From an uncultured Parcubacteria group bacterium (GTDB lineage Bacteria; Patescibacteriota; Patescibacteriia; UBA9934; CAMTUG01): a stretch of 64,000 nt of DNA. The stretch is from assembly GCA_947084965.1 (NCBI GenBank), contig CAMTUG010000001.1, positions 276,206-340,205 on the forward strand, in the 5' to 3' direction. The first letter of the stretch is position 1, and every line of letters begins with the position of its first letter. This document shows positions 1,019 through 59,940 of this stretch, piece after piece. The notes beneath the pieces are model-generated. The model searched no databases, was not told where the DNA came from, and saw only the letters and a program-made list of their open reading frames with translations. A program made the translations under genes and the position numbers.

Positions 1019-2098
1019 ATGAAAGTCATGCTCACAGGCGGAGGAACGCTCGGTCCGGTGACGCCGCTTTTGGCGATCGCCGAAGTCTGGCGTCGGGAAG
1101 ATATCCGTGCGGAGTTTGTCTGGATCGGCACACCTGGCGGACCGGAACGGAGCGTTGTCGAAGCGGCCGGGATCCCATTTCATCCTTTGTTTGTTCCTAA
1201 GCTTGATCGTTATGCTCCCGGGAAGTGGGTGTTCATTCCCTTTCGGTTGCTTTGGTCGATGAAGATGGCCCTGCACCTGATTCAACGCGAGCGGCCGGAT
1301 GTGGTGGTGACGGCTGGGGGGTATGTCAGCGTTCCGCTCCTGTGGGCCGCCAAGCTGTACGGCATCCCAACCTGGGTGCATCAGCAAGATGTGCGCGCCG
1401 GACTTGCCAATAAACTCATGGCGCCGTTTGCGACCAAGATTTCCGTCGCTTGGACGCGGTCGCTGCACGCGTTTGATGAGAAAAAGACGATCCATATCGG
1501 GAATCCGGTACGGGATTCTGTTTTGCACGGATCGCAGCAACGCGGGGCGGAGCGATTCGGATTTGATCTGTCGCGTCCAACGGTTCTGGTTTTTGGTGGT
1601 GGCACGGGCGCGGCCTGGATCAATCACGCGATCGCTCAGGTCGTTCCTGAATTGTGTATGACCGCGAATGTTCTGCATATCACCGGGCGAGGGAAGTTGA
1701 CGTCGGTCGAGCCTCGACCAAACTATCAGGCCGTAGAGTTACTCACGACCGAGATGCCGGATGCGCTCGCTCTCGCCGATCTGGTCGTCTGTCGTGCTGG
1801 CATGGCCACGATTTCCGAACTTGCCGCATTAGCCAAACCGGCGATGGTGATTCCGATCCCAGATTCGCACCAAGAAGATAACACCGCCGCCCTAGAAGAA
1901 CTCAGTGCTGCGGTGATTGTTCACCAGGCGCAGACAACGCCGCAGATGCTCTTGCAGCACATCCTTGGTTTTCTTGAGAATCCAGAAGAACGACGTAAGC
2001 TCGGTGCGCGACTGCACGCCGCGTTACCAACCACGGACGTTGCCCTCAAACTGGCGCATCATTTGGAAGCTATGGTAAAACAAGGATCCTCCCGCTAA
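1019..2098 (+). CDS. murG: UDP-GlcNAc:lipid I GlcNAc transferase MurG
   Basis: 359 aa. N-terminal 'GGGTLGPVTP' G-loop and C-terminal 'CRAGMATISELAALAKPAMVIP', typical of MurG (GT28). dcw-type context. Confidence 0.9.
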   Translation: MKVMLTGGGTLGPVTPLLAIAEVWRREDIRAEFVWIGTPGGPERSVVEAAGIPFHPLFVPKLDRYAPGKWVFIPFRLLWSMKMALHLIQRERPDVVVTAGGYVSVPLLWAAKLYGIPTWVHQQDVRAGLANKLMAPFATKISVAWTRSLHAFDEKKTIHIGNPVRDSVLHGSQQRGAERFGFDLSRPTVLVFGGGTGAAWINHAIAQVVPELCMTANVLHITGRGKLTSVEPRPNYQAVELLTTEMPDALALADLVVCRAGMATISELAALAKPAMVIPIPDSHQEDNTAALEELSAAVIVHQAQTTPQMLLQHILGFLENPEERRKLGARLHAALPTTDVALKLAHHLEAMVKQGSSR

Positions 2099-2154
2099 CC
2101 AGAAAAGCTCCCCATAAACATGAGAAGCTTTTCTGGTGCGCTGGGCGGGGATCG
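2091..2154. repeat. Direct repeat copy 1 (64 nt): murG stop, hairpin, and CCA plus the last 18 nt of tRNA-Lys
   Basis: Read base by base, it is identical to 2265-2328 ('cccgctaaccagaaaagctccccataaacatgagaagcttttctggtgcgctgggcggggatcg'). Confidence 0.9.
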
Positions 2155-2264: not shown

Positions 2265-2328
2265 CCCGCTAACCAGAAAAGCTCCCCATAAACATGAGAA
2301 GCTTTTCTGGTGCGCTGGGCGGGGATCG
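2265..2328. repeat. Direct repeat copy 2 (64 nt), overlapping the 3' end of the intact tRNA-Lys
   Basis: Perfect copy of 2091-2154, offset by 174 bp. It continues into the complete tRNA-Lys on the minus strand. Confidence 0.9.
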
Positions 2329-2382
2329 GACCCGCGACCTTGGGCTTAAAAGGCCCCTGCTCTACCACTGAGCTACCAGCGC
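2308..2382 (-). tRNA. tRNA-Lys (anticodon UUU), CCA encoded
   Basis: The reverse complement reads GCGCTGG-TA-GCTC-AGTGGTA-GAGC-A-GGGGC-CTTTTAA-GCCCA-AGGTC-GCGGG-TCCGATC-CCCGC-CCAGCGC-A-CCA. This folds as a cloverleaf with one A/G mismatch at the base of the anticodon stem. Confidence 0.85.
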
Positions 2383-14935: not shown

Positions 14936-14955
14936 TTGGAGGTGCTTCAAAATAC

Positions 14956-15006
14956 TGTTTTACAGTTCGTTTGAGCACATAATGTCGTCAAACGAACTGT
15001 AAAAGT
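14956..15006. repeat. Conserved-loop hairpin, family C, copy 1
   Basis: Stem 'tacagttcgtttga'/'tcaaacgaactgta' (14 bp perfect, extendable by tttt/aaaa). The 13-nt loop is 'gcacataatgtcg'. I aligned about 64 nt by eye with the copy at 59881-59940, and most positions match. Confidence 0.75.
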
Positions 15007-15034
15007 ACTTTTTAAGACACCCAACCTCGCGCGT

Positions 15035-41343: not shown

Positions 41344-41688
41344 ATGTCCGAGTCCGTCACCGCCTTCCGTCCCGATCCGGCCAAGATCTACGAGATCACG
41401 CTCCTCGAGGGCGACGTGGATCAGATCTGGAACCTCGCCCACGAAGGGGGTCGTTCGATCCTGCTTCTCGTGCGAGACCAGGCCGATCCCGCCGCGCCCG
41501 AGCAGGGGCTCTCCCTCATCCTCTACTCCGTCGCCTGGGAGGGCGGCGACAAGGAAAACCACCCGAACGAGGTCGTCGTCCGCGGCCGCATCCACGGCCG
41601 TACCGCGGACGAGCCGAACCCGGTGATCGGGTTTTGCTGGGACGACAAGTCCCGGACCGGTCTCCTCAACGTGGTCCTCCCGGTCTAG
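41344..41688 (+). CDS. Orphan soluble protein (GC3-rich)
   Basis: 114 aa starting 'MSESVTAFRPDPAKIYEITLLEG'. 27/30 G/C at codon position 3. AAGGAG lies 5 nt before the ATG. The longer track ORF from 41176 is out of context because it overlaps uvrC. Confidence 0.65.
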   Translation: MSESVTAFRPDPAKIYEITLLEGDVDQIWNLAHEGGRSILLLVRDQADPAAPEQGLSLILYSVAWEGGDKENHPNEVVVRGRIHGRTADEPNPVIGFCWDDKSRTGLLNVVLPV

Positions 41689-41743
41689 ACGTCCGGGCCT
41701 CGCCCTGCACGTCCGACCGGCTGCGATTCTCGCACCCGCCCCG

Positions 41744-41790
41744 GCATGAGCCCCTCGCTCACACTGCCGCGGTGGGTGCTCATGCTTTTA
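41744..41790 (+). terminator. Terminator of the orphan cassette
   Basis: 'gcatgagc...gctcatgc' followed by 'ttttatcgtcttttttt'. Confidence 0.65.
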
Positions 41791-41828
41791 TCGTCTTTTT
41801 TTGAATGCCGTGTTACATTGTCCCTACT

Positions 41829-42983
41829 ATGAAACATTATCTTTCTGGTCCGTTATTTTTGGGACTTATCGTGACTATGGGCTTTATTCCAATGTCGGTT
41901 TGGGCGGCGAGTGCCTGGCCGGCGTCCACGCAAGGGACGAGTATTGGCGGAGGGTTTGCGGGGATGACTCCGGCATTTGAACCGAGTGGGATTGAATGGT
42001 TGAGTGGGCGTTCTCAATTTGTCGTGGTCGGGGACGAAGGTCAGGTGGCGACGATGAATGCGGACGGAAGTGCTGCCAAGGTCTGGGATCTCGGTCGCAG
42101 CTATGACTTAGAAGGGGTCGCCGTAGCAGATGGGAATTCGAGCCGCGTCTATCTACTCGATGAAAACACCAGCTCGGCATTGGAGTTTGATTTGACGACC
42201 GGAACGCTGACCGGAAAAGTTTGGAGCTTTGCTGACAAACTTTCTGAAATCGACGGTTCTGGAGCGGAAGCTCTCGCTTATGCCAACGGCGCTTTCTATG
42301 TTGGCTGGCAGTACGACGGCGACATTTACGTCTATCCCGCAGATTTGGCGGTTAGTGGCTCGCAAGTTTTTGAACGCGAAATTCACATGACCTCTGGATA
42401 CGTTGATCTTGCTGGACTCACCTACAACAGCGACACCCAAAGACTCTACGCGCTATATGACGGGCTTAACTTGATCGAAGAGCGCTCGCTTAGTGGGGAA
42501 TTGCTCGCTTCCTACACAGCCCCTGGTGTGAATCAGGAGGGTATTGCTTTTGTGAACAACTGCGCTGGATCAAATGCAACGGTGGCGATCGCGGAAGATT
42601 CGGGGAATGTGGTGAGTTACGCGGGGTATCCGATCTCCTGTATTTCTCCGGCCCCAGCTCCTGCCCCTGCACCAGAACCTACGCCAGAGCCAACCCCGGA
42701 GCCAGCTCCTGAACCAGAGCTCATTACGATCACCTCCGTTTCCGGCGTGCGCGATGGGGACATTCTCGTTGCTTACTCCGACGGATCAACGGTGCGTTAC
42801 TCGATCTGGAGCAAAACAACTCGCACCAAGACCTCTGTTCAGCCGCTCACAGATCCGACCCATTACTTAGTGATCCTTGGGAAACAGGTCGCGGTCGTTG
42901 ATGCGATGGATGGTACGATTCTTGGTACGCGCAGCAAACCGCGATCCTCGTCAGTGCTGTACAGCTGGGCCAATTCGTTCTAA
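41829..42983 (+). CDS. Secreted beta-propeller-like protein with a Pro/Glu/Thr linker (possibly SdiA-regulated/YjiK-like)
   Basis: Signal peptide 'MKHYLSGPLFLGLIVTMGFIPMSVWA'. 'FEPSGIEWL' and 'SGAEALAY' repeats. 'PAPAPAPEPTPEPTPEPAPEPE' linker. Confidence 0.55.
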   Translation: MKHYLSGPLFLGLIVTMGFIPMSVWAASAWPASTQGTSIGGGFAGMTPAFEPSGIEWLSGRSQFVVVGDEGQVATMNADGSAAKVWDLGRSYDLEGVAVADGNSSRVYLLDENTSSALEFDLTTGTLTGKVWSFADKLSEIDGSGAEALAYANGAFYVGWQYDGDIYVYPADLAVSGSQVFEREIHMTSGYVDLAGLTYNSDTQRLYALYDGLNLIEERSLSGELLASYTAPGVNQEGIAFVNNCAGSNATVAIAEDSGNVVSYAGYPISCISPAPAPAPAPEPTPEPTPEPAPEPELITITSVSGVRDGDILVAYSDGSTVRYSIWSKTTRTKTSVQPLTDPTHYLVILGKQVAVVDAMDGTILGTRSKPRSSSVLYSWANSF

Positions 42984-55867: not shown

Positions 55868-56290
55868 ATGACAGCAAAACGTTTTGCCGCTTTTTGGGCC
55901 ATCGATTATGTCGTTGCCGGAGTGATCGTCTTCACCCTTGTGAATGGGGCTGTCCTTCTTGGCTTGCCGACGATCCTGCGACAGGCGATCGCTGTGTTTG
56001 TTCCGCTCTCAACGTTGTTTTTTGCCTGGGTCGCTTTTCATGGATCAACAAAAGAGCCCGCCCATCGTTATACGGTGGCGGCGCTTTGGCTCGGGCTCTC
56101 GATCTTCCTTGATGTGTTGACGGTCGCGCTTTTTTATCAAGCGTCGCCACTGGTGTTGTTCACTTCACCGCCGACGATCCTTGCCTATGGCTTTAAGTTT
56201 TTTGCGGTCGTTGGAGCCGGTACGCTTTCACGACGTTCAGCATCAGCATCGCTACCGTCACCGGACCTACTCCCCCCGGCACAGGCGTAA
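55868..56290 (+). CDS. Small membrane protein
   Basis: About 140 aa with 4 hydrophobic helices. Its 3' end overlaps folD convergently by 98 nt. Confidence 0.45.
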   Translation: MTAKRFAAFWAIDYVVAGVIVFTLVNGAVLLGLPTILRQAIAVFVPLSTLFFAWVAFHGSTKEPAHRYTVAALWLGLSIFLDVLTVALFYQASPLVLFTSPPTILAYGFKFFAVVGAGTLSRRSASASLPSPDLLPPAQA

Positions 56291-57029
56291 GGGCGCCAGC
56301 CACCGGTTCAACGGACTCAAATTCCACGTCCCCGAGCACTTGATCGCCCACTTTGGTGGTGCCAACGTCAATGACGATGGCCCCTTTTTTGATCATCGAC
56401 CCTTTGATCCGTTTCGGCTGACCAACAGCGACGATCAGCACATCTGCTTCGAGGCAGATGGCTGCGAGCTCCGCTGAGTCGGGGTGCACGATCTTGCTTT
56501 CGATTCCACCTTCCTTCAACAAAGCGACGAGAGGCCGAGCGAAGATTTCGGAGCAGACGAGTGTGGCTCGCTTCACGTGTGTTTGATGCGCTGTATCGAT
56601 CAGCTTCATCACCCCCATCGCTACAGGTGAAATCAATCCTGGAAGCCCATGCTCCAATCGGCGTAGGTTTTCTGGATGAAATCCGTCAATATCTTTGTTG
56701 GGATCGATCGCGCGAATGACGTCATCTGGGTTTTGATGGGGGAGGGGGAGCTGAACTAAGATGCCCTGGATATCTTCGCGAGCGTTCAAGGCATGGATCT
56801 TTGCGATTAAATCAGTTTGAGAAATCGTGGCGTCAAATACGTGCTTCTCAAAGCGAATCCCAACTTCATTACACGCCTTTTCTTTTAATGACACGTACAG
56901 ATGTGACGCCGGATCGTCGCCAACTAAAAGCGCGGCCATGCCCGGGGTGTCGGGAGAGCCTTTAATCATCTCTTTGACTTTGTCGCGGATGCGCGCGGCG
57001 ATCTCGCGGCCGTTCAATATCTGCGCCAT
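56193..57029 (-). CDS. folD: Methylenetetrahydrofolate dehydrogenase/methenyl-THF cyclohydrolase FolD
   Basis: 'ILNGREIA', 'LVGDDPASHLYV' and 'TPVPGGVGPVT'. Confidence 0.95.
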   Translation of the reverse strand: MAQILNGREIAARIRDKVKEMIKGSPDTPGMAALLVGDDPASHLYVSLKEKACNEVGIRFEKHVFDATISQTDLIAKIHALNAREDIQGILVQLPLPHQNPDDVIRAIDPNKDIDGFHPENLRRLEHGLPGLISPVAMGVMKLIDTAHQTHVKRATLVCSEIFARPLVALLKEGGIESKIVHPDSAELAAICLEADVLIVAVGQPKRIKGSMIKKGAIVIDVGTTKVGDQVLGDVEFESVEPVAGALTPVPGGVGPVTVAMLMLNVVKAYRLQRPQKT

Positions 57030-57030
57030 G

Positions 57031-58272
57031 TTAGTAGGAAAGCCCGGGATAGAGCGGGAATTTCGAAGTCATCTCTTTAACCTGATTTCTGATTTCCGTC
57101 AATGCGGTTTCGTCGTTCGTGTGCGTGATGGCGAGGTCGATCCAAGCAGCAATCAATTTCATCTCTTCTTCCTTCATCCCGCGGGTGGTGAGCGCCGGCG
57201 TGCCGAGGCGGATGCCGGAAGGATCCATCGGTCCGCGTGGGTCGTCTGGAATCGCGTTTTTATTGACCGTGATTCCGGCGGCGTCGAGGGCGATCTGGGC
57301 TTGCTTACCCGTGACGTTTTTGTTGGTGAGGTCGAGCAAGAGCAAATGATTTTCTGTGTGACCAAAACAAATGGAGTATCCGCGGGCGATGAATTCTGCT
57401 TCAAGCACTTTGGCGTTTGCCTTGATCTGCCTTGCATACGCCTTGAATTCCGGCAAAAGGGCTTCTTTGAACGCCACGGCTTTGGCGGCGATAACATTTT
57501 CGTGCGGTCCGCCTTGTAATCCCGGGAAGACTGCCTTGTCGATCGCTTTGGCATGGATTGCCTTGCACATGATCATCCCGCCGCGAGGGCCGCGGAGTGT
57601 TTTGTGTGTGGTTGTTGAAACAACGTCGAAGATCGGCACCGGGTTGTTCATCTCACCCGCGGCGATGAGTCCAGCGATGTGGGCGATGTCGGCCATCGTC
57701 AGCGCGCCCACTTCATCAGCAATCTCTTTGACCCGGGCGTAGTTAATCTCGCGCGAATAAGCGCTGTAGCCGACCAGGATCAACTTCGGCTTATGCTCGA
57801 GCGCCATCTGACGTAAGTTGTCGTAATCAATCGAACCATCGGCCACTGTTTTGTAGCGGATGAAGTTGTAGATGCCTGCGCTGAACGTCACCGGGTGCCC
57901 GTGCGTTAAGTGGCCGCCGTGAGACAAGTCCATCCCGAGGACGGTATCGCCTGGGGAGAGAAGAGCGGCATAGACGGCGATGTTGGCTGGTGCACCGGAA
58001 AGCGGCTGGACGTTGACGTGTTCCGCACCAAATAATTGCTTGGCACGTTCAATCGCCAGGCCCTCCATCACATCGATGAATTCGCAGCCGCCGTAGTAGC
58101 GTTTGCTGATATACCCTTCAGAATATTTGTTTGTGGCGACGCTACCGAGGGCTTCAAGGACTGCTCGTGAAACGAAGTTTTCACTTGGAATCATCTCTAA
58201 TCCTTCACGTTCACGATCGAGTTCATTTTGTAATGCTCCAGCGATATCAGGATCAAATTGTTTCAAAAACAT
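57031..58272 (-). CDS. glyA: Serine hydroxymethyltransferase
   Basis: 'IPSENF', '[15 protein letters not shown]' and more. The start is taken at 58272; the alternative is 58290. Confidence 0.95.
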
Positions 58273-58419
58273 ACAAGCGTTAAAGATCATGGATTATCCG
58301 TTACAGTTTGTACATTCTACAACATATTCCTGACTTGCACCTGCAAATTTTCTGGCCGGTGACGTACTTCGTTGGCTTATTTAGGCCTCGGTTGAATGAA
58401 AGAAAATGTAAAAAAGTTG

Positions 58420-58448
58420 AGGCGGCCGCGCACGTGGGGCGGCCGCCT
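58420..58448 (-). terminator. Minus-strand terminator at the left edge of the GC-rich element
   Basis: 'aggcggccgc-(9 nt)-gcggccgcct' (10 bp perfect), followed on the minus strand by 'caactttttt'. Confidence 0.7.
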
Positions 58449-58501
58449 GGGAGCTGGCTTGGTATCTGCAGACGTGGGGACCGTGAAGCGGTCCCCGGGA
58501 C

Positions 58502-58522
58502 TCAGGCGACGCAGGTCGTCAT
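58502..58522 (-). CDS. Six-codon sORF (MTTCVA) behind a perfect SD; coding status uncertain
   Basis: AAGGAGG (58534-58528), 5 nt, then ATG ACG ACC TGC GTC GCC TGA. The same frame is open upstream to a TTG (26 codons) but has no SD there. Confidence 0.25.
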   Translation of the reverse strand: MTTCVA

Positions 58523-58570
58523 GCGATCCTCCTTGCCGTTCGGCTCGGGGGTTGCTGGCTGCGGGTTGCA

Positions 58571-58604
58571 CGCACCGAACAAGCTGTATTCGGTGCGATT
58601 TTTA
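58571..58604 (+). terminator. Plus-strand terminator at the right edge of the GC-rich element
   Basis: 'cgcaccgaa-caagctgta-ttcggtgcg' followed by 'attttta'. Confidence 0.7.
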
Positions 58605-58646
58605 CTCTAGCAGGCGTTCGCAATTCTTGCTAGAGTTTGTGTGGAT

Positions 58647-59867
58647 ATGTTTGAGTCAGTACAAAAGGCCCATTTAATCGGTGTGGGAGGGATAGGCGTT
58701 TCGGCGCTCGGGAAGTTGTTTTTGCATTTGGGGAAAGTGGTTAGCGGATCGGATAGCTATCCAAACGAGCAGGTCGATGCCTTGCGTGCGCTTGGGGCAC
58801 ACGTGACGATCGGTCAGAGTGCAGACAACATCACCGAAGATATCGATCTGATTATTTACTCGCCGGCCGTGCCGGTTGATAATGCTGAACGTGCTCGAGG
58901 ACGAGAACTCGGGTTGATTGAGATGAGCTATCCAGAAGTGCTCGGCGAGATCTGCAAACAAAAACGTTGTGTGGCGATCGCGGGCACGCACGGCAAGTCG
59001 ACCACCACGGCGATGATCGGATTGGTCCTCGAAGCAGCTGGTCTCGATCCACTCGTGATCGTTGGATCAAAAGTGCCGACGTGGAAAGACGGCAACTTGC
59101 GCATGGGGCACGGCGAGATCTTCGTTGTCGAAGCGTGCGAGCACATGGCGAGCTTTCTGAAGCTGCATCCAGAGATCGCGGTCGTTACCAACATCGAAAT
59201 GGATCACCCAGATTTTTATCGCGACCTGGCGCATGTGCAGGAAACGTTTGCGAAATTTAAATTGCAATCTAAGCGCGTGATTGATGCTGGGACATGGTCT
59301 GGTAATCTGTCGCTCAAAGTTCCTGGTGCATTCAATATCGAAAATGCGCGACTGGCCGCGACCGTTGCCAAGGAATTTGATGTGCGTGATGAAGTCATCA
59401 CTGATGCGCTCAACACGTTTACTGGCTTGTGGCGCCGATTTGAGCGCGTCGGGCAGTATCGTGGTGCGGATGTCATCAGTGACTACGCCCATCACCCAAC
59501 GGCGATCGCGAAAACACTTCAAGCGACACGCGAGGCTTTTCCGAATCGACGCATCGTCCTTTGTTTCCAGCCACACCAACACGCTCGCACGAAGGAATTG
59601 TTCAATGCATTTGTTCCTGCGTTTGATAACGCGGATCGGATTATCCTGGTAGAGATTTACGCGGTTGCTGGACGGCTTGAGGTGGCAGGGGAGGTTTCCA
59701 GTAAGGACCTTGCTCGGTCCATTAAGGAACGGGGGAAGGATGTCTCATACGCAGTGGATCTCGTAGATGCGGAGAAACAAGTAAGAGATGTGGTCCAGGC
59801 GGGAGATGTCGTGCTGATCATGGGGGCGGGGGACGTCGATGATGTTGCGCGGAGGATCATAGAATAG
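58647..59867 (+). CDS. murC: UDP-MurNAc:L-alanine ligase MurC
   Basis: 'HLIGVGGIGVSALGK', 'IAGTHGKSTTTAM' and 'DYAHHPT'. ATG 58647; the track start is GTG 58641. Confidence 0.9.
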   Translation: MFESVQKAHLIGVGGIGVSALGKLFLHLGKVVSGSDSYPNEQVDALRALGAHVTIGQSADNITEDIDLIIYSPAVPVDNAERARGRELGLIEMSYPEVLGEICKQKRCVAIAGTHGKSTTTAMIGLVLEAAGLDPLVIVGSKVPTWKDGNLRMGHGEIFVVEACEHMASFLKLHPEIAVVTNIEMDHPDFYRDLAHVQETFAKFKLQSKRVIDAGTWSGNLSLKVPGAFNIENARLAATVAKEFDVRDEVITDALNTFTGLWRRFERVGQYRGADVISDYAHHPTAIAKTLQATREAFPNRRIVLCFQPHQHARTKELFNAFVPAFDNADRIILVEIYAVAGRLEVAGEVSSKDLARSIKERGKDVSYAVDLVDAEKQVRDVVQAGDVVLIMGAGDVDDVARRIIE

Positions 59868-59886
59868 TTGGGTACGCAAAAATCAC

Positions 59887-59932
59887 TTTTACAACTCGTT
59901 TGAGCACAAAATGTATTCAAACGAACTGAAAA
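59887..59932. repeat. Conserved-loop hairpin, family C, copy 2
   Basis: 'ttttacaactcgtttga-gcacaaaatgtat-tcaaacgaactgaaaa'. Closely similar to copy 1 at 14956-15006. Confidence 0.75.
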
Positions 59933-59940
59933 CTTACTTT

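What the first reader, a model, noticed from the sequence alone, without database searches (positions are those of the whole stretch)
58420..58604. GC-rich 185-bp element between divergent glyA and murC, bracketed by outward-facing terminators and containing a perfect SD plus a 6-codon ORF
The left edge is 'aggcggccgc-N9-gcggccgcct' followed by a T-run on the minus strand. The right edge is 'cgcaccgaa-N9-ttcggtgcg' followed by a T-run on the plus strand. The element is therefore insulated from both flanking genes, whose promoters must lie outside it.

Inside, on the minus strand: AAGGAGG, 5 nt, then ATG ACG ACC TGC GTC GCC TGA ('MTTCVA'). The hairpin 'ggggaccg-cttca-cggtcccc' follows. The same frame is open for 26 codons from an upstream TTG ('MFGACNPQPATPEPNGKEDRMTTCVA'). 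A plus-strand 29-codon ORF also exists.

It could be a leader-peptide attenuator that has lost its gene, a tiny peptide gene, or a non-coding mobile remnant.
Basis: seen in the sequence. Interest (0 to 1): 0.5.

Follow-up and report, generated by a model that had tools for sequence, protein, structure and literature searches.

The report
Orphan structured non-coding insert, glyA–murC gap
A 185-base, GC-rich, hairpin-filled stretch between two divergent housekeeping genes of an uncultivated Patescibacteria (CPR) bacterium is real and non-coding, and is most likely a small lineage-specific RNA gene with its own promoter and terminator, not a leader-peptide switch, though no expression data exist.

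Summary
The element folds better than shuffles on both strands (z about -3.6 and -3.8).

It is single-copy. It matches no Rfam, Pfam, phage, plasmid or viral sequence, and no frame shows protein-level conservation.

The host is an Uhrbacteria-like CPR bacterium. Divergent glyA-folD | murC synteny is conserved in its relatives, but the gap is usually only 40-150 nt. The element is therefore a derived insert between the two promoters.

Two relatives carry GC-rich non-coding inserts in the same place: L063, the sister lineage, and L005. Sequence similarity to the window is not significant. The layout is shared:
- a minus-strand promoter sits back-to-back with the murC promoter;
- a hairpin lies at the predicted RNA start (8 of 9 pairs kept in L063, 4 by double change);
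- a minus-strand terminator lies just upstream of the glyA promoter.

I therefore favour a roughly 190-nt minus-strand non-coding RNA of unknown function.

The leader-peptide idea is weak. This genome almost never uses Shine-Dalgarno sites, the mini-ORF is not conserved, and glyA has its own promoter downstream of the terminator.

Interest is modest.

The parts
58411..58598 (-). Predicted non-coding RNA of about 190 nt. This is the favoured orientation. The ends are inferred, not measured.
   Evidence: A promoter lies to the right and a terminator to the left on the minus strand in the window, L063 and L005. No coding signal was found.
58604..58612 (-). Extended -10 promoter box TGCTAGAGT. The predicted start is about 58599-58596, at the base of H3.
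   Evidence: this 9-mer occurs only twice in 64 kb, and the other copy is the murC promoter. In the unguided alignment its TAGAGT hexamer falls on the TATGAT -10 of L063's 11/12 promoter, at the same 6-nt distance from H3.
58571..58603 (.). Hairpin H3 (9 bp on +; 11 bp with a G-U pair on -) followed by A and T5. It would be a 5' stem-loop of the minus-strand RNA, and it is a canonical intrinsic terminator for + strand transcripts.
   Evidence: -13.9 / -16.1 kcal/mol. Against L063, 8 of 9 pairs are kept, 4 by changes on both sides.
58523..58555 (+). Imperfect hairpin (GCGATCC...GGGTTGC) that needs G-U pairs. It is predicted in this form only on the + strand, and it covers the CCTCCTT / AAGGAGG tract.
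   Evidence: MFE folds. This is prediction only.
58502..58534 (-). AAGGAGG, 5 nt, then ATG-ACG-ACC-TGC-GTC-GCC-TGA (MTTCVA). It is present but probably fortuitous.
   Evidence: SD use is rare in this genome and the motif is not conserved in L063 or L005.
58476..58496 (.). Hairpin H2, 8 bp with a 5-nt loop and no U-run on either strand.
   Evidence: -14.3 / -12.3 kcal/mol. L063 and L005 carry CCCTGG/CCAGGG-type hairpins at a comparable place.
58410..58448 (-). Hairpin H1 (10 bp, 9 of them G-C), then CAAC and U6. This is the minus-strand intrinsic terminator upstream of the glyA promoter.
   Evidence: -21.7 kcal/mol. The equivalent terminators are L063 198->169 (12 bp) and the L005 GCCGAGGGC-T5 hairpin.
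58605..58636 (+). Palindrome CTCTAGCA-N15-TGCTAGAG. Its right arm is the murC extended -10 (TGCTAGAGT, 58628-58636), and the murC ATG is at 58647.
   Evidence: L063 has TTGATAGAGT at the same place, preceded by two TGTCTAGAA repeats.
58314..58333 (-). Proximal promoter/operator region of glyA (TG-TAGAAT, 58321->58314). The glyA ATG is at 58290.
   Evidence: This region aligns with L063. It resembles the CACTATGGTGTA motif upstream of glyA in L003, L005, L112 and L116.

Best explanation
The element is a self-contained non-coding transcription unit, inserted between the divergent glyA and murC promoters in the common ancestor of this lineage and L063.

The most likely reading is a roughly 190-nt minus-strand RNA:
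1. RNA polymerase starts from the extended -10 box TGCTAGAGT (58612->58604). This box is the palindromic twin of the murC promoter and sits back-to-back with it.
2. The transcript begins at the base of hairpin H3 (about 58597).
3. It runs through a C-rich body that contains H2.
4. It stops at H1 plus U6 (about 58411), before reaching the glyA promoter.

On the + strand, H3 followed by T5 stops any transcription that enters from the left before it reaches the murC promoter. The unit is therefore insulated on both sides.

Shown: the sequence features, the excess structure, single copy, absence of coding signal, the derived (inserted) state, and the same promoter-hairpin-terminator layout in two relatives.

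Inferred: that the promoter and terminators work, the RNA ends, the strand, and any function. My guess is a trans-acting or locally acting regulatory small RNA selected for its structure rather than its sequence.
For: 1. The feature is real and structured.

2. It is non-coding. There is no tblastn or tblastx similarity between the three inserts or to the small ORFs that relatives carry in this gap, and no Pfam hit.

3. It is a derived insert. Ten or more related lineages have a gap of only about 15-150 nt (L002, L065, L112, L116-L118, L120-L122).

4. The sister lineage L063 (MurC 73%, NJ tree) has a 230-nt GC-rich insert between flanks that align with the window's flanks.

5. The minus-strand promoters right of the inserts are the best promoter matches in their regions:
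- L063: TTGACA-17-TATGAT, 11 of 12.
- L005: TTGACA-17-TAACAT, 10 of 12, tied with the glyA promoter.
- Window: TGCTAGAGT. Its TAGAGT hexamer aligns with the L063 -10 at the same distance from H3.

6. A minus-strand terminator lies left of the insert in all three, and in L063 and L005 a scanned glyA promoter follows it.

7. A good + strand terminator exists only in the window.

8. H3 keeps 8 of 9 pairs between the window and L063, with 4 double changes, in an unguided alignment. This argues that the hairpin has been selected despite complete sequence turnover.

9. The L063 and L005 inserts are significantly similar to each other (z 3.7, 2 of 500 shuffles).
Against: - No expression data exist.
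- The window's insert is not significantly similar in sequence to those of L063 (z 0.1) or L005 (z 1.7).
- RNAalifold finds no usable consensus for the three.
- The window promoter has no -35 box and is not called by the standard scan.
- TGnTAnnnT is only about 2-fold enriched in intergenic DNA.
- Perfect hairpins are strand-symmetric, so the structure scores do not choose a strand.
- + strand promoter-like sites (9 of 12) also face into the L063 and L005 inserts.
- The + strand MFE is lower than the minus-strand MFE in the window and in L005.
- The left terminator has a 4-nt spacer before its U-run.
- The L005 insert is not significantly structured.
- The gene calls behind the SD and promoter statistics are crude longest-ORF calls.
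Confidence: 0.4

Rival explanations
1. It is functionless or near-functionless spacer DNA: a decaying remnant of an earlier insertion or recombination junction in a gap that is a hotspot for gain and loss of small units. The hairpins act at most as incidental terminators.
For: - The gap is highly variable among relatives. It is empty in most, holds a roughly 150-aa ORF family in L004, L114, L115 and L119, and holds a different ORF in L003.
- Two glyA types (58% and 75-83% identity to the window) are swapped among lineages independently of murC, so recombination ends here.
- There is no sequence conservation with L063 or L005, and only one genome carries this sequence.
Against: - At 73% MurC identity a neutral sequence should have lost its perfect 9-12 bp GC stems. 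It should also have drifted towards the AT-rich composition of the neighbouring spacer.
- Instead both sister lineages keep GC-rich inserts with perfect end hairpins. H3 shows 4 compensatory double changes and only the innermost of its 9 pairs is lost.
- Near-consensus promoters face into the inserts of L063 and L005.
- There is no trace of the relatives' ORFs.
Confidence: 0.27
2. It is a + strand small RNA, or both strands are transcribed as an overlapping sense/antisense pair. The + strand RNA would start near H1 (58420) and end at H3 plus U5.
For: - The + strand terminator is the more canonical of the two: a 1-nt spacer, then T5.
- The + strand MFE is lower in the window (-98.8 against -77.9) and in L005, thanks to G-U pairs.
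- L063 has TTGAGT-16-TAGAAT (9 of 12) and L005 has TTGCTA-17-CATAAT (9 of 12), both facing into the insert from the left.
- The small genes that relatives carry in this gap are on the + strand.
- Outward terminators at both edges fit transcription of both strands.
Against: - In the window the only candidate box on the left is TGTAAAAAA, a poor -10.
- L005 has no + strand terminator, and L063's would have a 22-nt loop.
- The 9-of-12 promoter matches sit at the scan's threshold, where shuffles also give 0.4-1.2 sites per 600 nt.
Confidence: 0.2
3. It is a leader-peptide or translation-coupled attenuator upstream of glyA-folD. Translation of MTTCVA from the strong SD would control whether GCGUCGCCU pairs with the 5' arm of H1 as an antiterminator, and so whether transcription reads through into glyA.
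For: - The SD, spacing and ORF are exact.
- The 3' end of the ORF can pair with the H1 5' arm over 7-9 bp (-13.3 kcal/mol).
- The unit is co-oriented with glyA-folD, an operon often placed under RNA control in other phyla (my own knowledge).
Against: - The genome hardly uses SDs.
- The mini-ORF and SD are absent in L063 and L005.
- glyA has a conserved promoter region downstream of the terminator.
- The antiterminator is absent from the MFE fold of the truncated RNA and is much weaker than H1.
- The peptide has no run of a regulatory codon.
- Rfam riboswitch and leader models find nothing.
Confidence: 0.06
4. It is a small protein gene: the + 100-aa or 93-aa frame, or the - 64-aa frame.
For: Three frames stay open across the element.
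Against: - At 65% GC an open frame over 60 codons is expected about 20% of the time per frame (my calculation).
- The products are Arg/Pro-rich and low in complexity.
- The frames run through the terminator hairpins or into murC.
- There are no Pfam hits and no conservation with L063 or L005.
Confidence: 0.03

Closest known systems
Stand-alone bacterial small-RNA genes in intergenic regions (own promoter, 5' stem-loop, Rho-independent terminator)
   Same: Size of about 190 nt. Intergenic and single copy. A promoter-like box is followed within 6-7 nt by a stable 5' hairpin, and the 3' end is a GC hairpin plus U-run. The structure exceeds shuffles. Sequence turnover is fast while the hairpins are kept.
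   Different: There is no expression evidence, no Rfam family, no identifiable seed or target, and no known chaperone context in CPR bacteria. The strand is not settled.
Leader-peptide transcription attenuators (trp/his/pheST type)
   Same: An SD-led mini-ORF lies upstream of a terminator and is co-oriented with a biosynthetic operon. A weak alternative pairing to the terminator's 5' arm exists.
   Different: A separate glyA promoter lies downstream of the terminator. There are no regulatory codon runs and no conservation of the ORF. The host rarely uses SD sites, and the predicted antiterminator is not favoured.
Folate/one-carbon riboswitches found upstream of glyA/folD in other phyla (ZTP/pfl, THF, glycine)
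   Same: A structured, GC-rich RNA ending in a terminator, upstream of and co-oriented with glyA-folD.
   Different: No covariance-model match even at E<=10 in the window, L005 or L063. There is no conserved aptamer core among the three inserts, and a promoter lies between the terminator and glyA.
REP / MITE-type palindromic intergenic repeats
   Same: GC-rich perfect palindromes in an intergenic spacer.
   Different: Single copy everywhere searched, with no terminal inverted repeats or target-site duplication.
TIGR stem-loop arrays of CPR bacteria (PMC12045711)
   Same: Found in Patescibacteria. A series of variable palindromic stem-loops with little sequence conservation.
   Different: No tandem periodicity and no Nop-domain Tas protein nearby. 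Only 3-4 hairpins, irregularly spaced.

Membership tests
Intrinsic (Rho-independent) terminator | A GC-rich stem-loop followed directly by a U-run on the transcribed strand | tested here: met
   H3 on the + strand: 9 bp, then A and T5. H1 on the minus strand: 10 bp, then CAAC and T6, so a 4-nt spacer. Termination activity itself was not tested.
Stand-alone small-RNA gene | Own promoter and terminator delimiting a non-coding transcript | tested here: inconclusive
   Promoter-like boxes and terminators are predicted in the window, L063 and L005. The window promoter lacks a -35 box and is missed by the standard scan.
Stand-alone small-RNA gene | A detectable discrete transcript | not testable with these tools
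   No transcriptome data are accessible for this uncultivated organism.
Stand-alone small-RNA gene | Conserved secondary structure with covariation among orthologues | tested here: inconclusive
   H3: 8 of 9 pairs kept and 4 double changes against L063. H1 and H2 come into register only by hand. RNAalifold on three sequences gives no usable consensus.
Leader-peptide attenuator | A leader ORF whose translation selects between terminator and antiterminator, conserved with the operon, and with no promoter in between | tested here: not met
   The ORF and SD are absent in L063 and L005. The antiterminator is weak and not in the MFE fold. A glyA promoter region lies downstream of the terminator. SD use is rare.
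Known riboswitch or other Rfam family | A match to a curated covariance model | tested here: not met
   No relevant match at E<=10 around the window's element, the L005 gap or L063. No match at gathering thresholds in the window or in 14 related loci.
REP / MITE repeat | Multiple dispersed copies, terminal inverted repeats, target duplication | tested here: not met
   No second copy in the window, in related loci, or in phages, plasmids or viral contigs. The rest of the 476-kb source contig could not be searched.
Type I toxin-antitoxin locus | A small hydrophobic toxin ORF overlapped by an antisense RNA | tested here: not met
   The only SD-led ORF encodes 6 residues. The longer frames are Arg/Pro-rich, not hydrophobic.
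TIGR-Tas array | Tandem units next to a Nop-domain Tas gene | tested here: not met
   No tandem repeat. The neighbours are SHMT, FolD, MurC, NUDIX, MurB and two small proteins with no Nop hit.

The most novel reading that the evidence does not exclude
The window's element and the inserts of L063 and L005 would be members of a previously undescribed, fast-evolving family of structured small RNAs in Uhrbacteria-like CPR bacteria. Each is transcribed divergently from the murC (cell-wall) promoter and terminated in front of glyA-folD. The RNA itself, or a rare SD-led mini-ORF in an otherwise SD-poor genome, would couple one-carbon metabolism to peptidoglycan synthesis.
Probability: 0.12. Interest if true: 0.6.

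Novelty: new member of a known kind. Interest (0 to 1): 0.3.

Why it matters
Regulatory RNAs of CPR/Patescibacteria are, to my knowledge, almost unexplored, because these organisms are uncultivated and their intergenic regions are short. A stand-alone structured RNA kept between two essential operons would be one of the few candidate small RNAs in this group. It would also be a concrete target for metatranscriptome mapping.

If it is only a decaying insert, it still marks the glyA|murC gap as a hotspot where small transcription units and alternative glyA alleles are exchanged.

In passing, the analysis also shows that this genome relies on extended -10 promoters placed 6-12 nt before start codons and hardly uses Shine-Dalgarno sites. 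That matters for gene calling in such genomes.

Tried and rejected
- Rfam: permissive thresholds on the region, on L063 and on the L005 gap; gathering thresholds on the window and 14 related loci. Only noise hits (DnaX 14 bits, snoR20, S15, isrK).
- ARAGORN: no tRNA or tmRNA in the gap.
- Search for further copies: the repeat finder and low-stringency blastn in the window; blastn against all fetched loci; phage and plasmid collections (only 30-nt chance hits); exact hairpin patterns in viral contigs. All negative.
- The one exact copy, L001 from the Logan assembly of ERR3478686, is the same organism.
- Pseudogene of the small ORFs that relatives carry in this gap: tblastn at E<=100 gave nothing meaningful.
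- Coding potential: tblastx among the three inserts and Pfam on three frames were negative.
- Pairwise homology test with dinucleotide shuffles: significant only for L063 against L005.
- RNAalifold on a MAFFT alignment of the three minus-strand sequences: consensus energy -10.7 kcal/mol, not usable. I therefore built no covariance model.
- 6S and SRP RNA were considered from memory. The fold is multi-hairpin rather than rod-like, and no Rfam model matched.
- An anti-SD mimic (CCUCCUU on the + strand, CUCCUUUCU in the L063 loop) was considered. In L005 the tract lies on the other strand, so it is probably coincidence.
- TIGR array: rejected.
- My first strict terminator scan suggested that terminators are almost absent from this genome (4 hits). 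The relaxed scan corrected this to 16, so I dropped the argument that two terminators so close together are statistically remarkable.

Full report
**Observation**

The region was read directly.
- H1: AGGCGGCCGC-N9-GCGGCCGCCT, 58420-58448. It is preceded by A6 (58410-58415) and GTTG, so the minus strand reads hairpin-CAAC-T6.
- H2: GGGGACCG-TGAAG-CGGTCCCC, 58476-58496.
- H3: CGCACCGAA-N9-TTCGGTGCG, 58571-58597, followed by A and T5.
- Minus strand: AAGGAGG (58534->58528), 5 nt, then ATG ACG ACC TGC GTC GCC TGA (58522->58502).
- The 26-codon and 29-codon frames also exist.

The element is 63-67% GC. The adjoining spacer is 34-45% GC and the genome about 53%.

It folds much better than dinucleotide shuffles on both strands (z -3.6 and -3.8).

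The built-in terminator scan misses H1 and H3 only because of its 8-nt loop limit. My own scans find them.

**Context**

- glyA (57031-58290, minus strand) and folD (56193-57029, minus strand) diverge from murC (ATG at 58647, + strand).
- Related loci identify the host as a Patescibacteria/CPR bacterium close to Candidatus Uhrbacteria.
- The source contig is 476 kb.
- An independent Logan assembly, L001, carries the identical 356-nt gap.

**What it is not**

- No Rfam family matches.
- There is no tRNA or tmRNA in the gap and no tandem repeat.
- There is no second copy in the window, in more than 120 related loci, or in phage, plasmid or viral collections.
- No open frame shows Pfam similarity or is conserved in relatives.
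- At 65% GC, frames open over 60 codons are expected by chance about 20% of the time (my calculation).

**Comparative picture**

The divergent glyA-folD | murC arrangement is conserved across the clade. The gap is normally short.

| Gap content | Loci |
|---|---|
| About 15 nt | L002, L065 |
| 42-146 nt | L112, L116, L117, L118, L120, L121 (and L122, which has a different upstream neighbour) |
| Small + strand gene, about 150 aa, no Pfam hit | L004, L114, L115, L119 |
| Unrelated ORF | L003 |
| GC-rich non-coding insert | window, L063 (about 230 nt), L005 (about 260 nt) |

- In a MurC neighbour-joining tree the window and L063 are sisters (73% identity). L005 lies elsewhere.
- The window's flanks align with those of L063. 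The shared segments are the glyA promoter region, ATGTAAAAA, ATTTT(T/C)A and TTGnTAGAGT...ATATG.
- The two inserts are therefore positional orthologues, yet their interiors are not significantly similar (z 0.1).
- The L063 and L005 inserts are significantly similar to each other (z 3.7).

**Promoters and strand**

This genome almost never uses Shine-Dalgarno sites. Only 5 of 64 crude gene calls have any SD-like 4-mer, and AAGGAGG occurs 3 times in 128 kb of strand. Many genes have TGnTAnnnT 6-12 nt before the ATG.

The murC promoter fits this pattern: TGCTAGAGT at 58628-58636, 10 nt before the ATG. L063 has TTGATAGAGT at the same place.

The same 9-mer occurs once more in the window, on the minus strand at 58612->58604, as the other arm of a palindrome. 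It points into the element, and its -10 hexamer ends 6 nt before H3.

In the unguided alignment, that TAGAGT hexamer falls on the TATGAT -10 of L063's TTGACA-17-TATGAT promoter. That promoter scores 11 of 12 and is the best promoter match in the region.

L005 has TTGACA-17-TAACAT (10 of 12) in the same relative place.

All three inserts end on the minus strand with a GC hairpin and a U-rich tail. In L063 and L005 a scanned glyA promoter follows it, and in the window a proximal TG-TAGAAT box.

A convincing + strand terminator exists only in the window.

H3 is in register in the unguided alignment and keeps 8 of 9 pairs, 4 of them by changes on both sides. By hand, H1 keeps its shared pairs and three of them change on both sides; the window's outermost A-T pair has no counterpart in L063. 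This count was read from the sequences.

**Interpretation**

The persistence of GC-rich, perfectly paired end hairpins and of inward-facing promoters, across a divergence at which the interior sequence has been completely replaced, argues for a maintained transcription unit.

I favour a minus-strand non-coding RNA of about 190 nt (58598->58411). It would be divergent from murC and terminated before the glyA promoter. H3 followed by T5 would additionally block + strand transcription from reaching the murC promoter.

The function cannot be derived. The strand is not secure, for three reasons:
- Hairpins are strand-symmetric.
- The + strand MFE is lower.
- Weaker + strand promoter-like sites exist in L063 and L005.

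**The leader-peptide idea**

This reading is unlikely:
- SD use is rare in this genome.
- The SD and ORF are missing from L063 and L005.
- H2, the hairpin that follows the ORF, has no U-run.
- A possible antiterminator pairing (GCGUCGCCU with the H1 5' arm, -13.3 kcal/mol) is weaker than H1 (-21.7) and is absent from the fold of the truncated RNA.
- glyA has its own promoter region downstream of the terminator.

**Statistics caveat**

A strict scan found only 4 terminators in 64 kb, 2 of them the edges of this element. A relaxed scan found 16, against 1-7 in shuffles. Terminators are therefore used in this genome, and the proximity of two is not in itself remarkable.

**Verdict**

This is a real, orphan, structured, non-coding insert.
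- Small RNA gene, minus strand favoured: about 0.4.
- Functionless remnant or mere insulator: about 0.27.
- + strand RNA or transcription of both strands: about 0.2.
- Attenuator: about 0.06.
- Small protein: about 0.03.

Interest is modest, because only one genome carries this sequence and no expression data exist.

Noticed in passing
window 14948-15011 and 59877-59940: A 64-nt AT-rich palindromic element occurs twice (81% identity, roughly 13-bp stems). Both copies lie in the short spacer after a gene end (14935; the murC stop at 59867) and before the next gene. In the second copy the ATG of the next ORF (59911) sits in the hairpin loop. It could be a repeated terminator/promoter cassette or an operator.
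   Followed up: no
window 2091-2154 and 2265-2328: An exact 64-nt direct repeat, 174 nt apart. The second copy overlaps the 3' 21 nt of tRNA-Lys (2308-2382, minus strand), so the first copy carries a duplicated tRNA 3' end plus a hairpin. It resembles an att-site scar of an integrated or excised element.
   Followed up: no
whole window (64 crude gene calls): Shine-Dalgarno motifs are nearly absent: 5 of 64 genes have one. Many genes have an extended -10 box (TGnTAnnnT) only 6-12 nt before the ATG, which suggests that leaderless or very short-leadered mRNAs are common.
   Followed up: partly
L004 3467-3910, L114 2441-2893, L115 2447-2932, L119 1635-2075: A family of roughly 150-aa hypothetical proteins (35-40% identical to one another, no Pfam hit) occupies the same glyA|murC gap in other lineages. 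Where the sequence was read (L004), a terminator follows it. L003 has an unrelated 111-132-aa ORF there.
   Followed up: partly
glyA in the window against the related loci: Two glyA types are distributed independently of the MurC relationships. The window's GlyA is 75-83% identical to those of L112, L115 and many Uhrbacteria, but only about 58% identical to those of L002-L005 and L114, whose MurC proteins are as close or closer. This points to allele replacement, with a breakpoint in or near the gap.
   Followed up: partly
window 41627-41804: Another GC-rich (0.64, peak 0.74) apparently non-coding stretch. It ends in a long-loop hairpin plus a T-run (GCATGAGC...GCTCATGC TTTTATCGTCTTTTTTT), followed by TGTTACATT 9 nt before an ATG at 41829. 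It has no sequence similarity to the element studied here.
   Followed up: partly
window 58605-58635; L063 about 440-482: CTAG-centred repeats overlap the murC promoter: the palindrome CTCTAGCA-N15-TGCTAGAG in the window, and two TGTCTAGAA direct repeats plus GATAGAGT in L063. They may be an operator for a shared regulator.
   Followed up: no
L112 2855-2920: In the relative that lacks the insert, two short GC hairpins (GGGGCTACCATGCCCC and GCGGGGTGCAGTGACCCCGC) lie between the conserved CACTATGGTGTA motif and the glyA ATG, that is, inside the putative glyA 5' leader.
   Followed up: no
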